DNA of 63,977 nt, the filler included. It is 6 parts of 6 records of this genome, joined end to end, with 100 filler letters (N's around TTAATTAATTAA, not from the genome) between each part and the next. Parts side by side here need not be neighbours in the genome. Positions count along the whole stretch, not along the records: positions 35,135 to 42,134 come from DRR723986_8247; 5 more parts are not named here. One strand, 5' to 3'. Below the pieces are notes generated by a model. That model was not told where the DNA came from, did no database searches, and saw only the letters and a list, made by a program, of their open reading frames with translations. Below, one piece after another: positions 38,101-40,802 of the stretch. The position numbers and the translations under genes were made by a program. Each line of letters opens with the position of its first letter. The first letter of the stretch is position 1.

Positions 38101-38504
38101 GTGAGGCCAATCTGGTGATGGTGGAATCCGATGACCCGCTTGAGGCCGGCCTTGAGATCATGTGCCAACCGCCGGGCAAAAAGCTCAGCACACTGAGCCT
38201 GCTGTCGGGCGGCGAACAGACGTTGACGGCCATGGCGCTTATCTTTGCGGTGTTCCTGGCCAATCCCGCGCCGATCTGTGTTCTAGATGAGGTCGACGCG
38301 CCATTGGATGATGCCAATGTGACCCGCTTTTGTGATCTGTTGGACGAGATGTGCCGCCAGACCGATACGCGGTTCTTGATCATCACGCACCACGCGGTGA
38401 CCATGGCGCGGATGGACCGGTTGTTTGGTGTCACGATGGCCGAGCAGGGCGTCAGCCAGCTGGTGTCTGTGGATCTTAAGAAAGCGGAAACGCTGGTCGC
38501 GTAA
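35136..38504 (+). CDS. smc: Chromosome segregation protein SMC (5' truncated)
   Basis: Walker A GPNGCGKSN, Q-loop VRQGQI, long coiled coils, hinge, LSGGE signature, LDEVDAPLD. Confidence 0.96.
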   Translation: MGPNGCGKSNLLEALRWVMGENRPTAMRGGGMEDVIFAGAATRPARNFAEVALHIDNTERLAPAGFNDNDQLEIVRRITRDVGSAYKAAGKDVRARDVQMLFADASTGAHSPALVRQGQIAELINAKPKNRRRILEEAAGISGLYQRRHEAELKLNAAETNLARVDDVIEQLAAQLSQLARQARQAARYREIGDHLRRTEGMLLYRRWREADDARAAADEELRNRVTAASQGQAIVQQAAKARQLAEDALPPLREEEAIAVAVLQRLTVQRDTLDDQETRAKATIDTLTGRIAQLARDIEREGGLNRDAGETIERLEWEARELAKAGEGHDTALEAASEAAREAAAVLQAREGDLAQQTEDVARLAARHGSAERLLEDSRKTQNRSEAEAQKARDAVAQSQAALSKAGDDFETAQLAEAEAVAAAKAADEALIRAEETRAQTQTREAEARAERSEAEGEMNALRAETTALAKLVERDTAEGGQILDRLQVEHGFEKALGAALADDLRAPEVDADGPSGWAVLPSYDTAQPLPAGVTPLTQHVSVPDVLSRRMGQIGLVDPDDGPAMQAALLPGQRLVSPEGDLWRWDGFRAWAEDAPSAAALRLQQLNRLEVLKQSLEQASQRAEGARAAHDLLTRTLAEQSEADKRAREDRRTADRMVADAGRALSRAEADRNLAQGRLESLGLAVKRHEDEALAARGRVLEAERALSDLGDLGAARAGIEDIRMTVEAARITMMSRRSGHDELRREGEARTRRSQEVTKELSGWRHRLETAEKRSAELIERKTASEAELKEASAAPAEIAAKRDQLSSEMTVAEARRTEAAQVLATGEATLREATVQERDAERLASEAREARARAEALAEAARETVGAAAERIAEESQMTPNQLLTSLDVNPDQMPPSTTLEADVSRLKRQRDALGAVNLRAEEDAKEVQEEHDNLTDEKADLEEAIKTLRSGIASLNREGRERLLTAFEQVNSNFSMLFTHLFGGGEANLVMVESDDPLEAGLEIMCQPPGKKLSTLSLLSGGEQTLTAMALIFAVFLANPAPICVLDEVDAPLDDANVTRFCDLLDEMCRQTDTRFLIITHHAVTMARMDRLFGVTMAEQGVSQLVSVDLKKAETLVA

Positions 38505-38546
38505 ACGTTTGTGGTCTGGCCGGGTGTGATCGCATAGGTTTTCTGC

Positions 38547-38894
38547 ATGCGGTCCTTTTTGTTTATCTTGTGTTTCCCCGTTTGCGCCCTGGCGGACGGG
38601 TTTGCCCTGTTGGAGGGCGACCAGCCATTGCCGCGCACAGAGGTGATTGCACTGACCGCCAATCAATCTCTGACCTTCTTCGAAGGTGGTGTGTCGCAGT
38701 ATTCGGTAGGGGGTGCCTATAGCTATACCTACGCCGGCGGCGGCACGGCGTTTGGCCGGTTTCGGATTGGTACGGATGGTGTGATTTGTGTGGATTTCCG
38801 AAATGGCAGGCAGCGCTGTGACCAATTTGTGCGCAGCCATGGGCGGATTGTGATGGTTACCGAAGACGGCCAGAGATTCCCTGTCCGCCGCTGA
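38547..38894 (+). CDS. Small secreted hypothetical protein
   Basis: Signal peptide MRSFLFILCFPVCALA, beta-rich body, Cys pair (ICVDF...RCD). Confidence 0.65.
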   Translation: MRSFLFILCFPVCALADGFALLEGDQPLPRTEVIALTANQSLTFFEGGVSQYSVGGAYSYTYAGGGTAFGRFRIGTDGVICVDFRNGRQRCDQFVRSHGRIVMVTEDGQRFPVRR

Positions 38895-38978
38895 GAATTA
38901 GTGGTTAACGCCTCCTTGAGAAATCATTCCTAGGCTGCCCCTGCCGCAATCCGTTGCGGTGCAAGGAGGTGATATGGA

Positions 38979-39068
38979 TTGAATGAAAACACGTTCCGGA
39001 AGTGGATGGTCTTGATTGCGGCGGCAACGTTGCTGGTGACGATCATCCGGCTTTTGTTTGAGGGATAG
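38979..39068 (+). CDS. 29-aa hydrophobic peptide MNENTFRKWMVLIAAATLLVTIIRLLFEG; candidate type I toxin (not in the ORF track)
   Basis: SD AAGGAGGTGAT at 38963-38973, TTG start at 38979, single TM-length hydrophobic helix, TAG at 39066-39068, terminator downstream. Confidence 0.65.
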   Translation: MNENTFRKWMVLIAAATLLVTIIRLLFEG

Positions 39069-39082
39069 TTCGAACCCTTGAA

Positions 39083-39125
39083 CAAAAGTGACCCCGCAGA
39101 GTACCAGCTCTGCGGGGTCTTTTTG
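39083..39125. terminator. Bidirectional intrinsic terminator
   Basis: CAAAAGT-GACCCCGCAGAG-TACCAG-CTCTGCGGGGTC-TTTTTG: 12-bp perfect stem with an A-tract before and a T-tract after. Confidence 0.85.
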
Positions 39126-39157
39126 CAGTGATATGTTCGAATATGCACGTGCCGGAA
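39083..39157 (-). ncRNA. Predicted ~75-nt antisense (antitoxin-like) RNA
   Basis: Lies between a minus-strand sigma-70-like promoter and the bidirectional terminator; its 5' part is complementary to the peptide's start region through direct repeats. Confidence 0.5.
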
Positions 39158-39162
39158 ACTCA

Positions 39163-39191
39163 ACAGTAGTCAAATCCGCTCTGAGTTTCAA
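39163..39191 (-). promoter_or_regulatory. Sigma-70-like promoter on the minus strand
   Basis: TTGAAA (39191-39186) - 17 nt - TACTGT (39168-39163). Confidence 0.55.
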
Positions 39192-39221
39192 TCTACCTGC
39201 CACAGCATGGTTAACAGGGCC

Positions 39222-39617
39222 TTACTTCGCCGCTTTCTTTTCAACTGGGCCCCCGGCCTTTTCCCACCCGGAAAACCCGTCTTTGAGATGCGCGGCGTCA
39301 AATCCCATGTCTTGCAATGTGGCCACGGAAATGGCGGATCGCCAGCCGGAGGCACAGTGAAAGACAAACTTTTTATCCTCCCCAAACACCTCTTTGAAAT
39401 AGGGGCTGTCCGGGTCCACCCAGAATTCCAACATCCCGCGAGGGCAATGAAAACTGCCCGGGATAAATCCGACCCGTTCCCGTTCTCGGGGATCGCGGAT
39501 ATCGACGATCTGAACATTTGGATCACTGGCCATCGCGATGCCATCCGCACTGCTGATTTCCTCGATGCGGGCGCGGGCCTCGGCGACCATTTGGGCAGAC
39601 GTACGTTTCAGCGGCAT
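39222..39617 (-). CDS. Rhodanese-like domain protein
   Basis: IVDIRDPRE, IPGSFHCPRGMLEF, FHCASGWRS active loop, LKDGFSGW. Confidence 0.9.
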   Translation of the reverse strand: MPLKRTSAQMVAEARARIEEISSADGIAMASDPNVQIVDIRDPRERERVGFIPGSFHCPRGMLEFWVDPDSPYFKEVFGEDKKFVFHCASGWRSAISVATLQDMGFDAAHLKDGFSGWEKAGGPVEKKAAK

Positions 39618-39629
39618 CTCAGTCTCCGA

Positions 39630-40802
39630 TCAAAGTTTGCCAAGCAGGGCGGGCGTTGGCCAGCCATCAACGGCCAGACCCAGCCGTGCCTGTTCGCGGC
39701 GCACTGCGGCGCGGGTCTTTGCGCCAAGGATACCGTCAATGTCGCCCACATCATAGCCACGGCTCTGCAATTTGGTTTGCAGTTGTTTCATCTGGCCACC
39801 TTCAAGCCCCGGCTCGGGGTTGCCAGCGTCAAAGACCTTGGCCCCCTGCAATCGGGTGGCAAAATAGGCGGCGGTCATCACGTAGGTAAAACTTTGGTTC
39901 CAGTCAAAATAGACGCGGAAGTTGGGGTAGGCGATAAAGGCCGGGCCGCTGCGGCCTTGCGGCAATAGCAAGGAGGCCGTCAGTCCATTGGCAAGATCGC
40001 CGTTGCGGGCGGTGACGCCCAGTGCCTGCCATTCGGCCGTAGATTTCTGCACGTCCAGCCCGGTCAGGGACCAATCGAAGTCATTTGGAACTGCAACCTC
40101 ATCCAACCAGGGCTCGCCTGCGCGCCAGCCAAGGTGATGCAACATCTTACCACCAGACATCAGCGCATCCGGCGCGGAGGTTTTGAGGGACACTTGGCCG
40201 TCACCATCGCCATCCACGCCGTTTTCCAGAATGTCGCGGGGCAGCATTTGCACCATGCCGATCTCTCCGGCCCACGCGCCTGTGGTGGTTTTGGGATCAA
40301 ACGCCCCTTTGGCAAAAAGCTCTACCGCGGCGAGGATCTGCGGGCGGAACAATTCGGGGCGGCGGCAGTCGTGTGTAAGGGTGACGAGGGCATTGGCGGT
40401 GTTGAAATCACCCTGAAAGCTGCCGTAGTCGGTTTCGAAGGCCCAAAACGCCAGCAAGACACCACGATCCACGCCATAGGTTTTTTCAATCCGGTCAAAG
40501 ATCGCATCGTATTTCTTGCCGTTGGCGCGGCCTCTGTTGATCCTGTCGTTGGAAATCAGGCGGCGCGAGAAATCCACAAAAGGGATCTGAAACACGCCTT
40601 GTTTCCGGTCGGCCCGCAGAACGGCAGGGTCTTGTTTGACCCCGGCAAAGAAGGCTTTTGCGGTGCTCGGCGCAATGCCTGCGGCAATGGCCTCGGTTCT
40701 GAGACCTTGCACAAATGTGGAGAATGACCCGCCACAGGGCACATCGGCAAGGGCGGTCAGGGGGGCTGCGATCAGGGCAGCGGCGATCAAAAAGCGGCGC
40801 AT
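39630..40802 (-). CDS. Lytic murein transglycosylase (MltB-like) with C-terminal peptidoglycan-binding domain
   Basis: Signal peptide, AFWAFETDYG (catalytic Glu), GAWAGEIGMVQ, DGDGDG, GYDVGDIDGILGAKTRAA. Confidence 0.9.
   Translation of the reverse strand: MRRFLIAAALIAAPLTALADVPCGGSFSTFVQGLRTEAIAAGIAPSTAKAFFAGVKQDPAVLRADRKQGVFQIPFVDFSRRLISNDRINRGRANGKKYDAIFDRIEKTYGVDRGVLLAFWAFETDYGSFQGDFNTANALVTLTHDCRRPELFRPQILAAVELFAKGAFDPKTTTGAWAGEIGMVQMLPRDILENGVDGDGDGQVSLKTSAPDALMSGGKMLHHLGWRAGEPWLDEVAVPNDFDWSLTGLDVQKSTAEWQALGVTARNGDLANGLTASLLLPQGRSGPAFIAYPNFRVYFDWNQSFTYVMTAAYFATRLQGAKVFDAGNPEPGLEGGQMKQLQTKLQSRGYDVGDIDGILGAKTRAAVRREQARLGLAVDGWPTPALLGKL

What the first reader, a model, noticed from the sequence alone, without database searches (positions are those of the whole stretch)
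38902..39225. Unannotated par/Fst-like type I toxin-antitoxin module in a Rhodobacteraceae-like chromosome
Seen in sequence: (a) SD AAGGAGGTGAT (38963-38973), then TTG at 38979 opening MNENTFRKWMVLIAAATLLVTIIRLLFEG* (29 aa, one TM-length helix flanked by charged residues); (b) a 12-bp bidirectional terminator (39083-39125); (c) a convergent minus-strand promoter TTGAAA-N17-TACTGT, predicting +1 near 39156-39157; (d) direct repeats: GTGATATG at 38969-38976 and 39128-39135, CACGTTCCGGAA at 38990-39001 versus CACGTGCCGGAA at 39146-39157 (11/12), with TGCA upstream of both. The second copy ends at the predicted antisense +1, so the ~75-nt antisense RNA would start with sequence complementary to the peptide's SD-proximal region and first codons. 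Established knowledge: convergent RNAs sharing a bidirectional terminator, with direct repeats DRa/DRb giving complementarity to the toxin start, is the design of the Enterococcus pAD1 par (Fst, RNA I/RNA II) family, known mainly from Firmicutes. Inference: this is an analogous type I TA or sRNA-controlled small-protein system in an alphaproteobacterium, sitting between the smc region and the rhodanese gene. I know of no described example there, but I cannot run a search.
Basis: partly seen in the sequence, partly recalled or inferred. Interest (0 to 1): 0.9.

Follow-up and report, generated by a model that had tools for sequence, protein, structure and literature searches.

The report
Antisense-controlled membrane peptide module, Rhodobacteraceae
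A tiny unannotated gene for a 29-residue membrane peptide sits tail to tail with a small RNA gene whose front end mirrors the peptide's ribosome-binding site, the same layout as a classic toxin-antitoxin system of Gram-positive bacteria, here found conserved in a group of marine alphaproteobacteria.

Summary
The window matches Sulfitobacter mediterraneus. The 29-codon ORF (38979-39068) is conserved in 30 distinct modules from Rhodobacteraceae genomes, with coding-type substitutions.

In all 30:
- About 33 nt, from the GGTGA of the Shine-Dalgarno through codon 8, is repeated just after a shared terminator hairpin.
- A conserved -35/-10 promoter on the other strand reads into the second copy.

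The two copies co-vary genome by genome (0 of 20000 permutations reach the observed score). Predicted duplexes average -37.6 kcal/mol for cognate pairs and -23.1 for non-cognate pairs. So a roughly 76-nt convergent sRNA should mask the SD and start codon of the peptide mRNA. This is the pAD1 par (RNA I/RNA II) design.

Other findings:
- The peptide matches no Pfam or NCBIfam family and lacks the Fst signature. This is an analogue, not a member.
- A CtrA-box-like TTAA-N7-TTAA motif sits upstream of the peptide promoter, with the published geometry of CtrA-activated promoters.
- The mRNA has a conserved 5' hairpin and a hairpin enclosing the stop codon.
- The module is chromosomal. It was found in 22 of 401 family genomes, usually after smc.

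No transcript data could be obtained, and toxicity is untested. My literature searches found no description of it.

The parts
38905..38920 (+). CtrA-box-like bipartite motif (TTAA-N7-TTGAG here; TTAA-N7-TTAA(C) in the family). It overlaps the -35 region of the peptide mRNA promoter.
   Evidence: Best match to TTAA-N7-TTAAC is at least 7 of 9 in 26 of 30 modules, at a fixed place. Background: 66 of 3000 windows of 60 nt. The geometry matches passages of PMC6180460.
38931..38936 (+). Predicted -10 element (TAGGCT) of the peptide mRNA. A38932 would be position -11.
   Evidence: T in 17 and A in 20 of 30 at the box-anchored positions 27-28. Inferred, not mapped.
38943..39126 (+). Predicted peptide mRNA (RNA I analogue), about 184 nt, from predicted +1 (G38943) to the U-tract after the terminator.
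   Evidence: MFE -84.4 kcal/mol, z -6.6, 0 of 200 shuffles fold as well. Both ends are inferred from the promoter and terminator.
38943..38960 (+). 5'-terminal hairpin of the mRNA.
   Evidence: RNAalifold consensus. 5 of its 6 pairs keep pairing through changes on both sides in at least one sequence; the pair at columns 9/16 is GC 17, AU 8, CG 3.
38963..38971 (+). Shine-Dalgarno sequence AAGGAGGTG.
   Evidence: Conserved in the alignment of 31 sequences. GGNGG ends 8 nt (24 of 30) or 9 nt (5 of 30) before the aligned start codon.
38969..39001 (+). Repeat copy 1: the 3' part of the SD, the start codon and codons 1-8. This is the target of the antisense arm.
   Evidence: Family median -10 to +22 relative to the start codon.
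38979..39068 (+). ORF for the 29-residue membrane peptide MNENTFRKWMVLIAAATLLVTIIRLLFEG, with a TTG start.
   Evidence: Pairwise differences by codon position are 33, 21 and 47 %. Mean Kyte-Doolittle value for residues 10-23 is 2.85.
39051..39088 (+). Two-tier hairpin with the stop codon in its loop.
   Evidence: The stop codon is enclosed by predicted pairs in 30 of 30 modules, and the inner helix differs between genomes. Inverted repeat I2.
39090..39119 (.). Shared bidirectional intrinsic terminator (12-bp stem, 6-nt loop). Tails are at 39120-39126 (+) and 39089-39080 (-).
   Evidence: both strands. Found in 30 of 30 modules. 9 of its 12 pairs show compensatory changes.
39080..39157 (-). Predicted antisense sRNA (RNA II analogue), about 76-78 nt: a 5' arm complementary to the mRNA's translation initiation region, then the terminator hairpin.
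   Evidence: MFE -32.5 kcal/mol, z -5.5. Duplex with the translation initiation region is -34.6 kcal/mol in the window. Both ends are inferred.
39128..39157 (-). Repeat copy 2, which is the antisense arm of the sRNA.
   Evidence: It begins a median 8 nt after the terminator stem and ends 38 nt after it. Mean identity to copy 1 is 0.79.
39163..39168 (-). -10 element of the sRNA promoter (TACTGT on the minus strand).
   Evidence: Conserved as a TAnnnT-like hexamer.
39186..39191 (-). -35 element of the sRNA promoter (TTGAAA on the minus strand), 17-nt spacer.
   Evidence: TTTACn or TTGnnn in the aligned column of all 31 sequences. An unguided scan picks this promoter in 25 of 30.

Best explanation
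This is a chromosomal two-RNA module that works like the par locus of Enterococcus plasmid pAD1. It belongs to a new family confined, in the genomes searched, to Rhodobacteraceae.

Plus strand: a promoter with a CtrA-box-like motif over its -35 region gives an mRNA of about 184 nt. The mRNA has a 5'-terminal hairpin, a strong SD and a weak (non-ATG) start codon. It encodes a 29-residue peptide with one transmembrane helix, has a hairpin around the stop codon, and ends in a terminator.

Minus strand: a conserved sigma-70-type promoter gives a convergent sRNA of about 76 nt that ends at the same hairpin. Its first 30 nt or so are complementary to the mRNA from the GGUGA of the SD through codon 8, because that stretch exists as a direct repeat on either side of the terminator. 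The two terminator hairpins are also complementary to each other.

Proposed action: the sRNA pairs with the mRNA, masks the ribosome-binding site and start codon, and so blocks synthesis of the peptide. The peptide is made only when mRNA outruns sRNA, for instance when CtrA is active.

Shown here: the sequence elements, their conservation, the co-variation of the repeats, and the coding signature.

Inferred: both transcripts and their ends, repression by pairing, dependence on CtrA, and that the peptide harms the membrane when overproduced. For that last point alone I give about even odds.
For: 1. The ORF is conserved with a coding signature. tblastn finds it at the same place in 8 of 80 rhodanese loci (E at most 1.1e-6; next best 1.3). 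The profile finds it in 22 of 401 family genomes. Pairwise differences by codon position are 3925, 2472 and 5650.
2. The repeat is present in 30 of 30 modules at fixed places (copy 1 from -10 to +22; copy 2 from 8 to 38 nt after the stem). Its sequence differs between genomes while the two copies stay alike. The sum of cognate scores is 1010 against a permuted mean of 543.8 (sd 28.7). 0 of 20000 permutations reach it, and the cognate copy is the best partner for 22 of 30.
3. RNAduplex: cognate mean -37.6 kcal/mol, non-cognate mean -23.1 (sd 5.0). For 20 of 30 mRNAs no non-cognate arm binds as well. z against shuffled arms averages -6.2.
4. The minus-strand -35 and -10 are conserved in an otherwise variable stretch. 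Copy 2 ends about 7 nt after the -10.
5. Terminator in 30 of 30. 14 of 18 consensus pairs show compensatory changes.
6. The design matches the features listed for par in PMC7472228 (passages). PMC8594479 (passages) says pairing outside the overlap occurs only in Fst/RNAII and SprA1/SprA1as.
7. CtrA-like box: 26 of 30 score at least 7 of 9, against 66 of 3000 background windows. It ends 22-24 nt before the hairpin's first base, with a conserved A 11 nt before that base. PMC6180460 reports 23 or 24 nt and an invariant A at -11.
8. The aligned start codon is never ATG (CTG 18, TTG 8, GTG 4 of 30).
Against: - No transcript evidence. The four public runs that hold part of the stretch are contigs without strand or ends.
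- The window's own sRNA promoter fails the generic consensus scan.
- One module (L099) has a weak predicted duplex, -17.6 kcal/mol, and 23 of 29 non-cognate arms bind its mRNA at least as well.
- The plus-strand U-tract after the terminator is poor in several genomes, so mRNA termination there is less certain than sRNA termination.
- All 18 CTG-start members have an in-frame GTG 9 nt upstream, and 12 of 30 have an ATG 6 nt upstream. So 'weak start codon' and the N-terminus are uncertain for 24 of 30 members. This does not apply to the window's copy.
- Nothing tests toxicity. The module is single copy in G001, syntenic and absent from plasmids, phages and viral contigs. It therefore has no addiction-module context.
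- Related sequences inflate permutation statistics. Here, however, relatedness raises non-cognate scores, which works against the result.
Confidence: 0.6

Rival explanations
1. The RNA mechanism is the same, but the peptide is not a toxin. It would be a benign small membrane protein with a physiological partner, for example in cell-envelope or chromosome-segregation functions, given smc and the lytic transglycosylase next door. The sRNA would only set an expression threshold.
For: - Strict synteny after smc in 18 of 23 loci and beside the transglycosylase in 17 of 23.
- Single copy in G001.
- No match in plasmids, phages or viral contigs.
- A transcription-factor box on the peptide promoter.
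- Strongly conserved residues F/Y6, R7, K8, W9, M10, R24 and L25. This suggests a specific interaction rather than mere hydrophobicity.
Against: - The module is cleanly absent from 26 of 34 closely related smc-rhodanese loci, with gaps as small as 7-17 nt, so it is dispensable.
- A dedicated antisense RNA covering the SD and start, and a non-ATG start, are typical of type I toxins.
- Chromosomal type I systems are also syntenic and spread by lineage-specific duplication rather than transfer (PMC2887945, passages).
Confidence: 0.28
2. The antisense arm is not a separate sRNA. It is part of the 3' UTR of the convergent gene (rhodanese here, the lytic transglycosylase or fabI elsewhere), which ends at the same terminator. 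That mRNA, or a fragment processed from it, would then pair with the peptide mRNA.
For: - The hairpin is the first terminator downstream of the convergent gene.
- The minus-strand U-tract is the better conserved of the two tails.
Against: - A -35/-10 pair with a 17-18-nt spacer is conserved between the convergent gene and copy 2, although the convergent gene differs (rhodanese, transglycosylase or fabI).
- The sequence between the gene's end and the -35 is not conserved.
- Both routes could coexist.
Confidence: 0.08
3. The repeats act as DNA, for example as paired protein-binding sites, or are kept alike by gene conversion without any RNA-RNA function.
For: Direct repeats about 150 bp apart can undergo conversion. 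No transcript data are in hand.
Against: - Copy 2 tracks synonymous changes in the codons of copy 1 in 30 genomes.
- It always lies between a conserved promoter and a terminator, on the strand that makes it antisense.
- It commonly lacks 3-5 nt in the middle yet keeps both flanking blocks.
- A DNA-binding protein would have to re-adapt in every species.
Confidence: 0.03
4. The region encodes the 101-residue minus-strand ORF (38898-39203) listed by the ORF finder.
For: The frame is open in the window. Frames of 90 or more codons exist in 14 of 30 modules.
Against: - The longest minus-strand frame varies from 48 to 104 codons.
- tblastn matches are partial (about residues 20-100), 27-50 % identical in the longer pieces, split over two or three frames in several genomes, and never cover the first 7 residues.
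- The plus-strand peptide is better conserved (31-66 % identity to the alignment's first sequence, mean column identity 61 %).
- The ORF would run through a terminator hairpin and two promoters.
Confidence: 0.01

Closest known systems
par of Enterococcus faecalis plasmid pAD1 and its chromosomal relatives (Fst toxin; RNA I / RNA II). Features taken from passages of PMC7472228.
   Same: - Convergent promoters.
- One bidirectional intrinsic terminator that gives the two RNAs complementary stem-loops.
- Direct repeats transcribed in opposite directions, so that the small RNA's 5' part pairs with the SD and start codon outside the region of overlap.
- A non-ATG start codon (GUG in Fst).
- A peptide of about 30 residues with one transmembrane helix.
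- A structured 5' end on the toxin mRNA.
- Repeat sequences that are poorly conserved between family members.
   Different: - The peptide has no detectable similarity to Fst/Ldr. It has no highly charged C-terminal tail and no P/D/S/T-XXX-G motif as a rule.
- The host is a Gram-negative alphaproteobacterium.
- The repeat is one block of about 33 nt, often with a small gap in copy 2, rather than two named repeats.
- SD sequestration within the mRNA is not clearly conserved.
- There is a conserved hairpin around the stop codon and a CtrA-box-like promoter motif.
- The module is never on a plasmid in PLSDB.
SprA1/SprA1AS (PepA1) of Staphylococcus aureus. PMC8594479 (passages) names it, with Fst/RNAII, as a family whose RNAs interact outside their overlap.
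   Same: The antisense RNA is encoded at the 3' side and overlaps the mRNA's 3' end. The functional pairing is at the translation start.
   Different: It is found in Gram-positive bacteria and belongs to the Fst superfamily. No relation to the peptide here was found.
Type I systems of Gram-negative bacteria (Hok/Sok, Ldr/Rdl, Ibs/Sib, TisB/IstR-1, ShoB/OhsC, Zor/Orz, DinQ/AgrB, AapA/IsoA), as laid out in PMC8594479 (passages).
   Same: A small hydrophobic peptide whose translation is blocked by a dedicated small RNA. Some of these (the TisB and DinQ systems, by recall) have a stress-regulated toxin promoter.
   Different: In those families the antisense gene either lies 5' of the mRNA without overlap or lies wholly within it. 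None shares a terminator with a convergent partner.
CtrA-activated promoters of Rhodobacter (Cereibacter) sphaeroides fla2 genes and of Caulobacter (PMC6180460, passages).
   Same: A TTAA-N7-TTAA box near -35 that ends 23-24 nt before the start site, an A at -11, and a purine at +1.
   Different: The start site here is predicted, not mapped. No CtrA binding or dependence has been tested.

Membership tests
par / Fst-RNA II family (Fst/Ldr superfamily) | Convergent promoters for the toxin mRNA and the antisense RNA. | tested here: met
   By sequence only. The minus-strand -35/-10 is conserved in the alignment of 31 sequences and picked by an unguided scan in 25 of 30. No transcript mapping was possible.
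par / Fst-RNA II family (Fst/Ldr superfamily) | A shared bidirectional intrinsic terminator that gives complementary stem-loops. | tested here: met
   both strands in the window; 30 of 30; compensatory changes in 9 of 12 stem pairs.
par / Fst-RNA II family (Fst/Ldr superfamily) | Direct repeats transcribed in opposite directions, so that the antisense RNA pairs with the SD and start codon. | tested here: met
   (30 of 30; 0 of 20000 permutations). (cognate -37.6 against -23.1 kcal/mol).
par / Fst-RNA II family (Fst/Ldr superfamily) | An intramolecular 5' stem-loop in the toxin mRNA that sequesters the SD. | tested here: inconclusive
   In single-sequence folds the SD core is paired with probability above 0.5 in 27 of 30. 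The partner varies: codons 5-7 in about half, the 3' tail in others. It is not part of the RNAalifold consensus.
par / Fst-RNA II family (Fst/Ldr superfamily) | A helix that protects the extreme 5' end of the toxin mRNA. | tested here: inconclusive
   A hairpin with compensatory changes starts at the predicted +1. The 5' end is not mapped, and the helix is local, not the long-range helix described for RNA I.
par / Fst-RNA II family (Fst/Ldr superfamily) | [quoted passage not shown] | tested here: not met
   W at position 26 in 16 of 30, but only 3-4 mostly uncharged residues follow. No Fst, Ldr or other toxin family appears among Pfam hits even at E up to 10.
Type I toxin-antitoxin system (generic) | A small hydrophobic peptide (under about 60 residues) and a small RNA complementary to its mRNA. 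| tested here: met
   27-30 residues; mean hydropathy of residues 10-23 is 2.85.
Type I toxin-antitoxin system (generic) | The peptide is toxic when overproduced, and the RNA prevents this. | not testable with these tools
   This needs expression experiments.
CtrA regulon (CtrA-activated promoter) | A TTAA-N7-TTAA(C) box near -35. | tested here: met
   At least 7 of 9 in 26 of 30 modules at a fixed place, against 66 of 3000 background windows.
CtrA regulon (CtrA-activated promoter) | The box ends 23-24 nt before the start site, with an A at -11 (PMC6180460). | tested here: inconclusive
   The geometry fits if transcription starts at the first base of the 5' hairpin. The start site is not mapped.
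CtrA regulon (CtrA-activated promoter) | CtrA binds the promoter and is needed for transcription. | not testable with these tools
   This needs ChIP or a ctrA mutant.
Any Rfam RNA family | A score at or above the family's gathering threshold. | tested here: not met
   11 matches at E up to 10 in 38400-39700, none near its threshold. The best (P6, 23.8 bits against 50) covers only the terminator hairpin.

The most novel reading that the evidence does not exclude
[quoted passage not shown] It reached the par design (shared terminator plus direct repeats) independently of the Firmicutes systems. It is wired into the CtrA phosphorelay: a constitutive antisense RNA sets a threshold, so the membrane-active peptide is made only in cells with high CtrA activity. 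That is the subpopulation which, in Rhodobacterales, turns on motility, differentiation or lytic release of gene transfer agents.
Probability: 0.3. Interest if true: 0.85.

Novelty: new variant of a known kind. Interest (0 to 1): 0.75.

Why it matters
[quoted passage not shown] The par layout is described as a Gram-positive one. A family with the same layout but an unrelated peptide in marine Rhodobacteraceae would show that this regulatory design evolved more than once.
- It would give alphaproteobacterial RNA biology a compact, self-contained antisense pair in which 30 natural variants already serve as compensatory-mutation data.
- The CtrA-like box offers a testable link between a cell-cycle and lifestyle regulator and a membrane peptide.
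- On the practical side, a conserved gene is missing from annotation. Where gene callers do call it, they choose differing starts; called lengths run from 20 to 136 residues.

Tried and rejected
- Whole-genome search of the window's own assembly: none is held. I used the genome of L001 (G001) as a stand-in.
- Public runs: four runs hold 9-32 % of the sampled words. All are contigs, only one is on record as RNA, and short contigs cover parts of the module (for example 39009-39245). They give no strand, ends or level, so they count neither for nor against expression.
- Rfam: nothing at threshold.
- Pfam and NCBIfam: only chance-level transmembrane matches; best E is 0.0092 and none reaches a curated cut-off.
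- Plasmids (protein and DNA modes), phages and viral contigs: no match.
- Class-wide search: no member outside the family sample. There was one weak hit inside a 592-residue frame.
- Weak profile hits inside frames of 562-614 residues (G102, G266, G364) were dropped as chance.
- The inverted repeat 38906-38918 / 38962-38974, which would mask the SD, lies upstream of the predicted start site and is not conserved. I rejected it as a regulatory helix.
- A sigma-70 -35 for the plus promoter: no hexamer at 16-18 nt from the -10 is conserved. Reading the box as the activator site fits better.
- The minus-strand 101-residue ORF was rejected.
- Earlier findings of this scan: nothing on this sequence, place or topic.
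- The R. capsulatus CtrA sRNA paper (PMC5546546) holds none of the terms smc, toxin, peptide or transglycosylase. Its supplementary tables could not be seen and might list such an RNA.
- One search was too broad to be useful.
Full report
**What is in the window**

- The SD AAGGAGGTG lies at 38963-38971.
- TTG at 38979 opens a 29-codon frame that ends at 39068. A TGA at 38970-38972 closes the frame upstream.
- A 12-bp, GC-rich stem at 39090-39119 is scored as terminator-like on both strands.
- TTGAAA, a 17-nt spacer and TACTGT lie on the minus strand (39191-39186 and 39168-39163).
- The two short direct repeats are in fact the ends of one imperfect repeat of about 33 nt, 38969-39001 and 39128-39157.
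- The generic promoter scan finds nothing in 38400-39700, because TACTGT has only three consensus positions.
- Rfam gives no match near any gathering score. Its best match covers only the terminator hairpin.

On the window alone the case would be suggestive, not strong.

**Where the window comes from, and the neighbours**

The convergent downstream gene is a rhodanese-domain protein. The next gene is a lytic transglycosylase with a peptidoglycan-binding domain. The 115-residue upstream ORF has no Pfam family, and smc ends at 38504. The rhodanese protein is 99 % identical to that of Sulfitobacter mediterraneus DSM 12244 (L001). No whole genome is held for the window itself, so the genome of L001 (G001) served as the centre for searches.

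**The peptide gene is real and conserved**

tblastn of the peptide against the 80 rhodanese loci finds it at the same place and orientation in 8 of them (E at most 1.1e-6; the next best hit has E 1.3).

Distribution of the profile:
- A profile of these peptides finds 22 of 401 sampled genomes of the same family, one of them with two copies. Three further weak hits lie inside frames of 562-614 residues, and I dropped them.
- A wider profile of 30 members finds the same 22 genomes.
- In 401 genomes sampled across the class it finds only two genomes that are also in the family sample, plus one weak hit inside a long frame.
- G001 has one copy.
- A profile search of 1.84 billion representative proteins gives 46 clusters at E up to 0.001, 15 of them at E up to 1e-10. 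Gene callers gave them lengths of 20 to 136 residues with differing starts.

Across 30 distinct modules (the near-duplicate L081/L001 left out), pairwise differences fall 33 %, 21 % and 47 % on codon positions 1, 2 and 3. The same order holds for codons 2-9 alone. Translation therefore covers the conserved F/Y-R-K-W-M-V stretch and does not start at the internal ATG.

The peptide has a polar N-terminus, a hydrophobic core (mean Kyte-Doolittle value 2.85 for residues 10-23), a near-invariant R or K at position 24 and a short uncharged end. It matches no Pfam or NCBIfam family even at E up to 10 beyond chance transmembrane hits.

**Start codon**

The aligned start is CTG in 18, TTG in 8 and GTG in 4 of 30, and never ATG. 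GGNGG ends 8 or 9 nt upstream in 29 of 30. A caution applies:
- All 18 CTG members, 24 of 30 in all, have an in-frame GTG 9 nt upstream inside the SD.
- 12 members have an in-frame ATG 6 nt upstream.
- The six members without any upstream in-frame start, the window among them, all have TTG or GTG.

So the N-terminus is uncertain by two or three residues in most members. In the window, TTG at 38979 is the only possible start before the internal ATG.

**The repeat and the antisense arm**

In all 30 modules the stretch from about -10 to +22 relative to the start codon is repeated. This stretch holds the GGTGA of the SD, the start codon and codons 1-8. The second copy begins a median 8 nt after the terminator stem and ends 38 nt after it, with a mean identity of 0.79. 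Copy 2 often lacks 3-5 nt in the middle, which leaves two blocks.

The sequence of the repeat differs between genomes, but the two copies of one genome stay alike:
- The summed cognate alignment score is 1010 against a permuted mean of 543.8 (sd 28.7). None of 20000 permutations reaches it, and the cognate copy is the best partner for 22 of 30.
- Read as RNA from the minus strand, copy 2 is complementary to the mRNA. RNAduplex gives -37.6 kcal/mol on average for cognate pairs and -23.1 (sd 5.0) for non-cognate pairs.
- For 20 of 30 mRNAs no foreign arm binds as well.
- One module, L099, is an outlier at -17.6 kcal/mol.

Copy 1 is under coding constraint and changes at synonymous sites, and copy 2 follows those changes. 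Selection for RNA-RNA pairing is the simplest explanation.

**Transcription signals**

Between copy 2 and the convergent gene, an otherwise variable stretch holds a conserved -35 (TTTACn or TTGnnn), a spacer of 17-18 nt and a -10. An unguided scan picks this promoter in 25 of 30 modules, with the -10 ending 41-55 nt before the terminator. Copy 2 ends about 7 nt after the -10, so the predicted sRNA starts with the antisense of codons 6-8. In the window it would run from about 39157 to about 39080. It folds into a weak 5' hairpin and the terminator (-32.5 kcal/mol, z -5.5).

The terminator is present in 30 of 30. RNAalifold on 30 mRNAs predicts 18 pairs, and 14 of them keep pairing through changes on both sides. 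The A-rich run before the stem, which is the U-tract of the minus-strand RNA, is more regular than the T-run after it.

**The mRNA**

A hairpin with compensatory changes lies just upstream of the SD (38943-38960). In 30 of 30 modules the stop codon sits in the loop of a two-tier hairpin just before the terminator. Its inner helix differs between genomes.

The window's predicted mRNA is far more structured than shuffles (-84.4 kcal/mol, z -6.6). Single-sequence folds pair the SD core with probability above 0.5 in 27 of 30. The partner is sometimes codons 5-7 and sometimes the 3' tail, and the consensus fold leaves the SD open. Intramolecular masking is therefore not settled.

**A CtrA-like box**

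Upstream of the 5' hairpin every module has a bipartite motif. The best match to TTAA-N7-TTAAC is at least 7 of 9 in 26 of 30 (at least 8 in 18), at a fixed place and in either orientation. Among 3000 background windows of 60 nt from the same loci, 66 reach 7 and 15 reach 8. Box-anchored counts are T28 T25 A25 A26 at positions 1-4 and T24 T18 A20 A29 at positions 12-15. A T/A pair follows at positions 27-28.

Passages of PMC6180460 state that in CtrA-activated promoters of R. sphaeroides, as in Caulobacter:
- the box lies near -35 and ends 23 or 24 nt before the start site;
- A at -11 is invariant;
- the first base is a purine.

In the window the box ends at 38920 and the conserved A is 38932. 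That puts +1 at G38943, the first base of the 5' hairpin. This fit is the basis for the predicted mRNA start and for the idea that CtrA activates the peptide promoter. Both are inferences.

**Genomic context and spread**

Of the 23 loci from the family search, 18 have the end of smc just upstream on the same strand. 17 have the lytic transglycosylase convergent downstream. The rhodanese gene and the 115-residue ORF are variable extras.

The three loci with neither neighbour (L085, L099 and L107, the last being the second copy in G173) all lie convergent to an enoyl-ACP reductase gene. That is a second fixed site.

Among 34 of the 80 rhodanese loci where smc follows, 8 have the module and 26 do not. 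In some of those 26 only 7-17 nt separate the two genes. The module is thus dispensable and has been lost or gained cleanly within one genus. No relative is found in PLSDB plasmids, GenBank phages or IMG/VR contigs.

**Comparison with what is known**

Passages of the review PMC7472228 list the features conserved throughout the par family:
- convergent promoters;
- a bidirectional intrinsic terminator whose complementary stem-loops start the interaction;
- intramolecular helices that sequester the SD and the 5' end;

The first three are met here. The helices are inconclusive. The toxin signature is not met. [quoted passage not shown]

Passages of PMC8594479 say that 3'-overlapping antisense genes belong to Gram-positive families, and that pairing outside the overlap occurs only in Fst/RNAII and SprA1/SprA1as. 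PMC2887945 (passages) found no known type I toxins outside Firmicutes and Gammaproteobacteria in 2010, and argued that these systems spread by lineage-specific duplication, which agrees with the two fixed sites seen here. The abstract of PMC12390103 (search listing) names Proteobacteria, Firmicutes and Tenericutes as the phyla known so far.

Full-text searches turned up no description of such a module. They covered type I toxin-antitoxin with Alphaproteobacteria, Rhodobacter or Roseobacter, and CtrA with small RNAs. The R. capsulatus CtrA sRNA paper holds none of the terms I looked for, and its supplements were closed.

**Rivals**

- A benign small membrane protein under the same RNA control cannot be told from a toxin without experiments. 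I give it about 0.28.
- Antisense supply from the 3' UTR of the convergent gene is possible alongside the sRNA's own promoter.
- DNA-level explanations fit poorly with a copy that tracks synonymous changes.
- The 101-residue minus-strand ORF is not conserved as a frame.

**What is missing**

No strand-specific transcript data could be obtained. The four runs found are contigs and say nothing about strand, ends or level. Both RNA ends, repression, CtrA dependence and toxicity are inferred.

**Verdict**

The par-like mechanism is well supported by co-variation in 30 genomes. Membership in the Fst family is rejected. Toxicity is open. I score interest at 0.75. A specialist would be surprised to find the par design, with an unrelated peptide and a CtrA-type promoter, conserved in marine alphaproteobacteria, and the claim can be tested directly with standard methods.

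Noticed in passing
window 39207-39214 (minus strand): An exact TTAACCAT, the ungapped CtrA motif named in PMC6180460, lies between the rhodanese stop codon and the sRNA promoter, about 50-58 nt upstream of the predicted sRNA start. ATGGTTAAC is kept in 6 of the 9 Sulfitobacter sequences aligned. It is absent where the transglycosylase is the direct neighbour.
   Followed up: partly
L085, L099, L107 (module at about 1498-1584 of each locus): There is a second fixed site for the module, convergent to an enoyl-ACP reductase (fabI-like) gene. One genome (G173) has a copy at each site.
   Followed up: partly
window 38547-38894 (+): A 115-residue ORF with a hydrophobic N-terminus and no Pfam family sits between smc and the module. 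Relatives (36-47 % identity, 93 % in L081) are present in only some loci, so it is a variable insert.
   Followed up: partly
window 39222-39617 (-): The rhodanese gene lies between the module and the lytic transglycosylase only in the Sulfitobacter-like loci. Elsewhere the transglycosylase is the direct convergent neighbour.
   Followed up: partly
window 39102-39107 and the same loop in 29 other modules: Many terminator loops share a central GCA (for example CTGCAA, TAGCAG, TTGCAC). By my reading of that list, a YUNR U-turn motif on the mRNA strand is present in only about 6 of 30 loops. The window's loop (TACCAG) has it on the sRNA strand instead.
   Followed up: no
window 38906-38918 and 38962-38974: A 13-nt inverted repeat would pair an anti-SD with the SD. 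It lies upstream of the predicted transcription start and is not conserved in relatives.
   Followed up: yes
window 38898-39203 (-) and other minus-strand frames: Long open frames run antisense across the whole module in this GC-rich DNA: 101 and 77 codons in the window, and 48-104 codons in relatives. They are not conserved as frames.
   Followed up: yes
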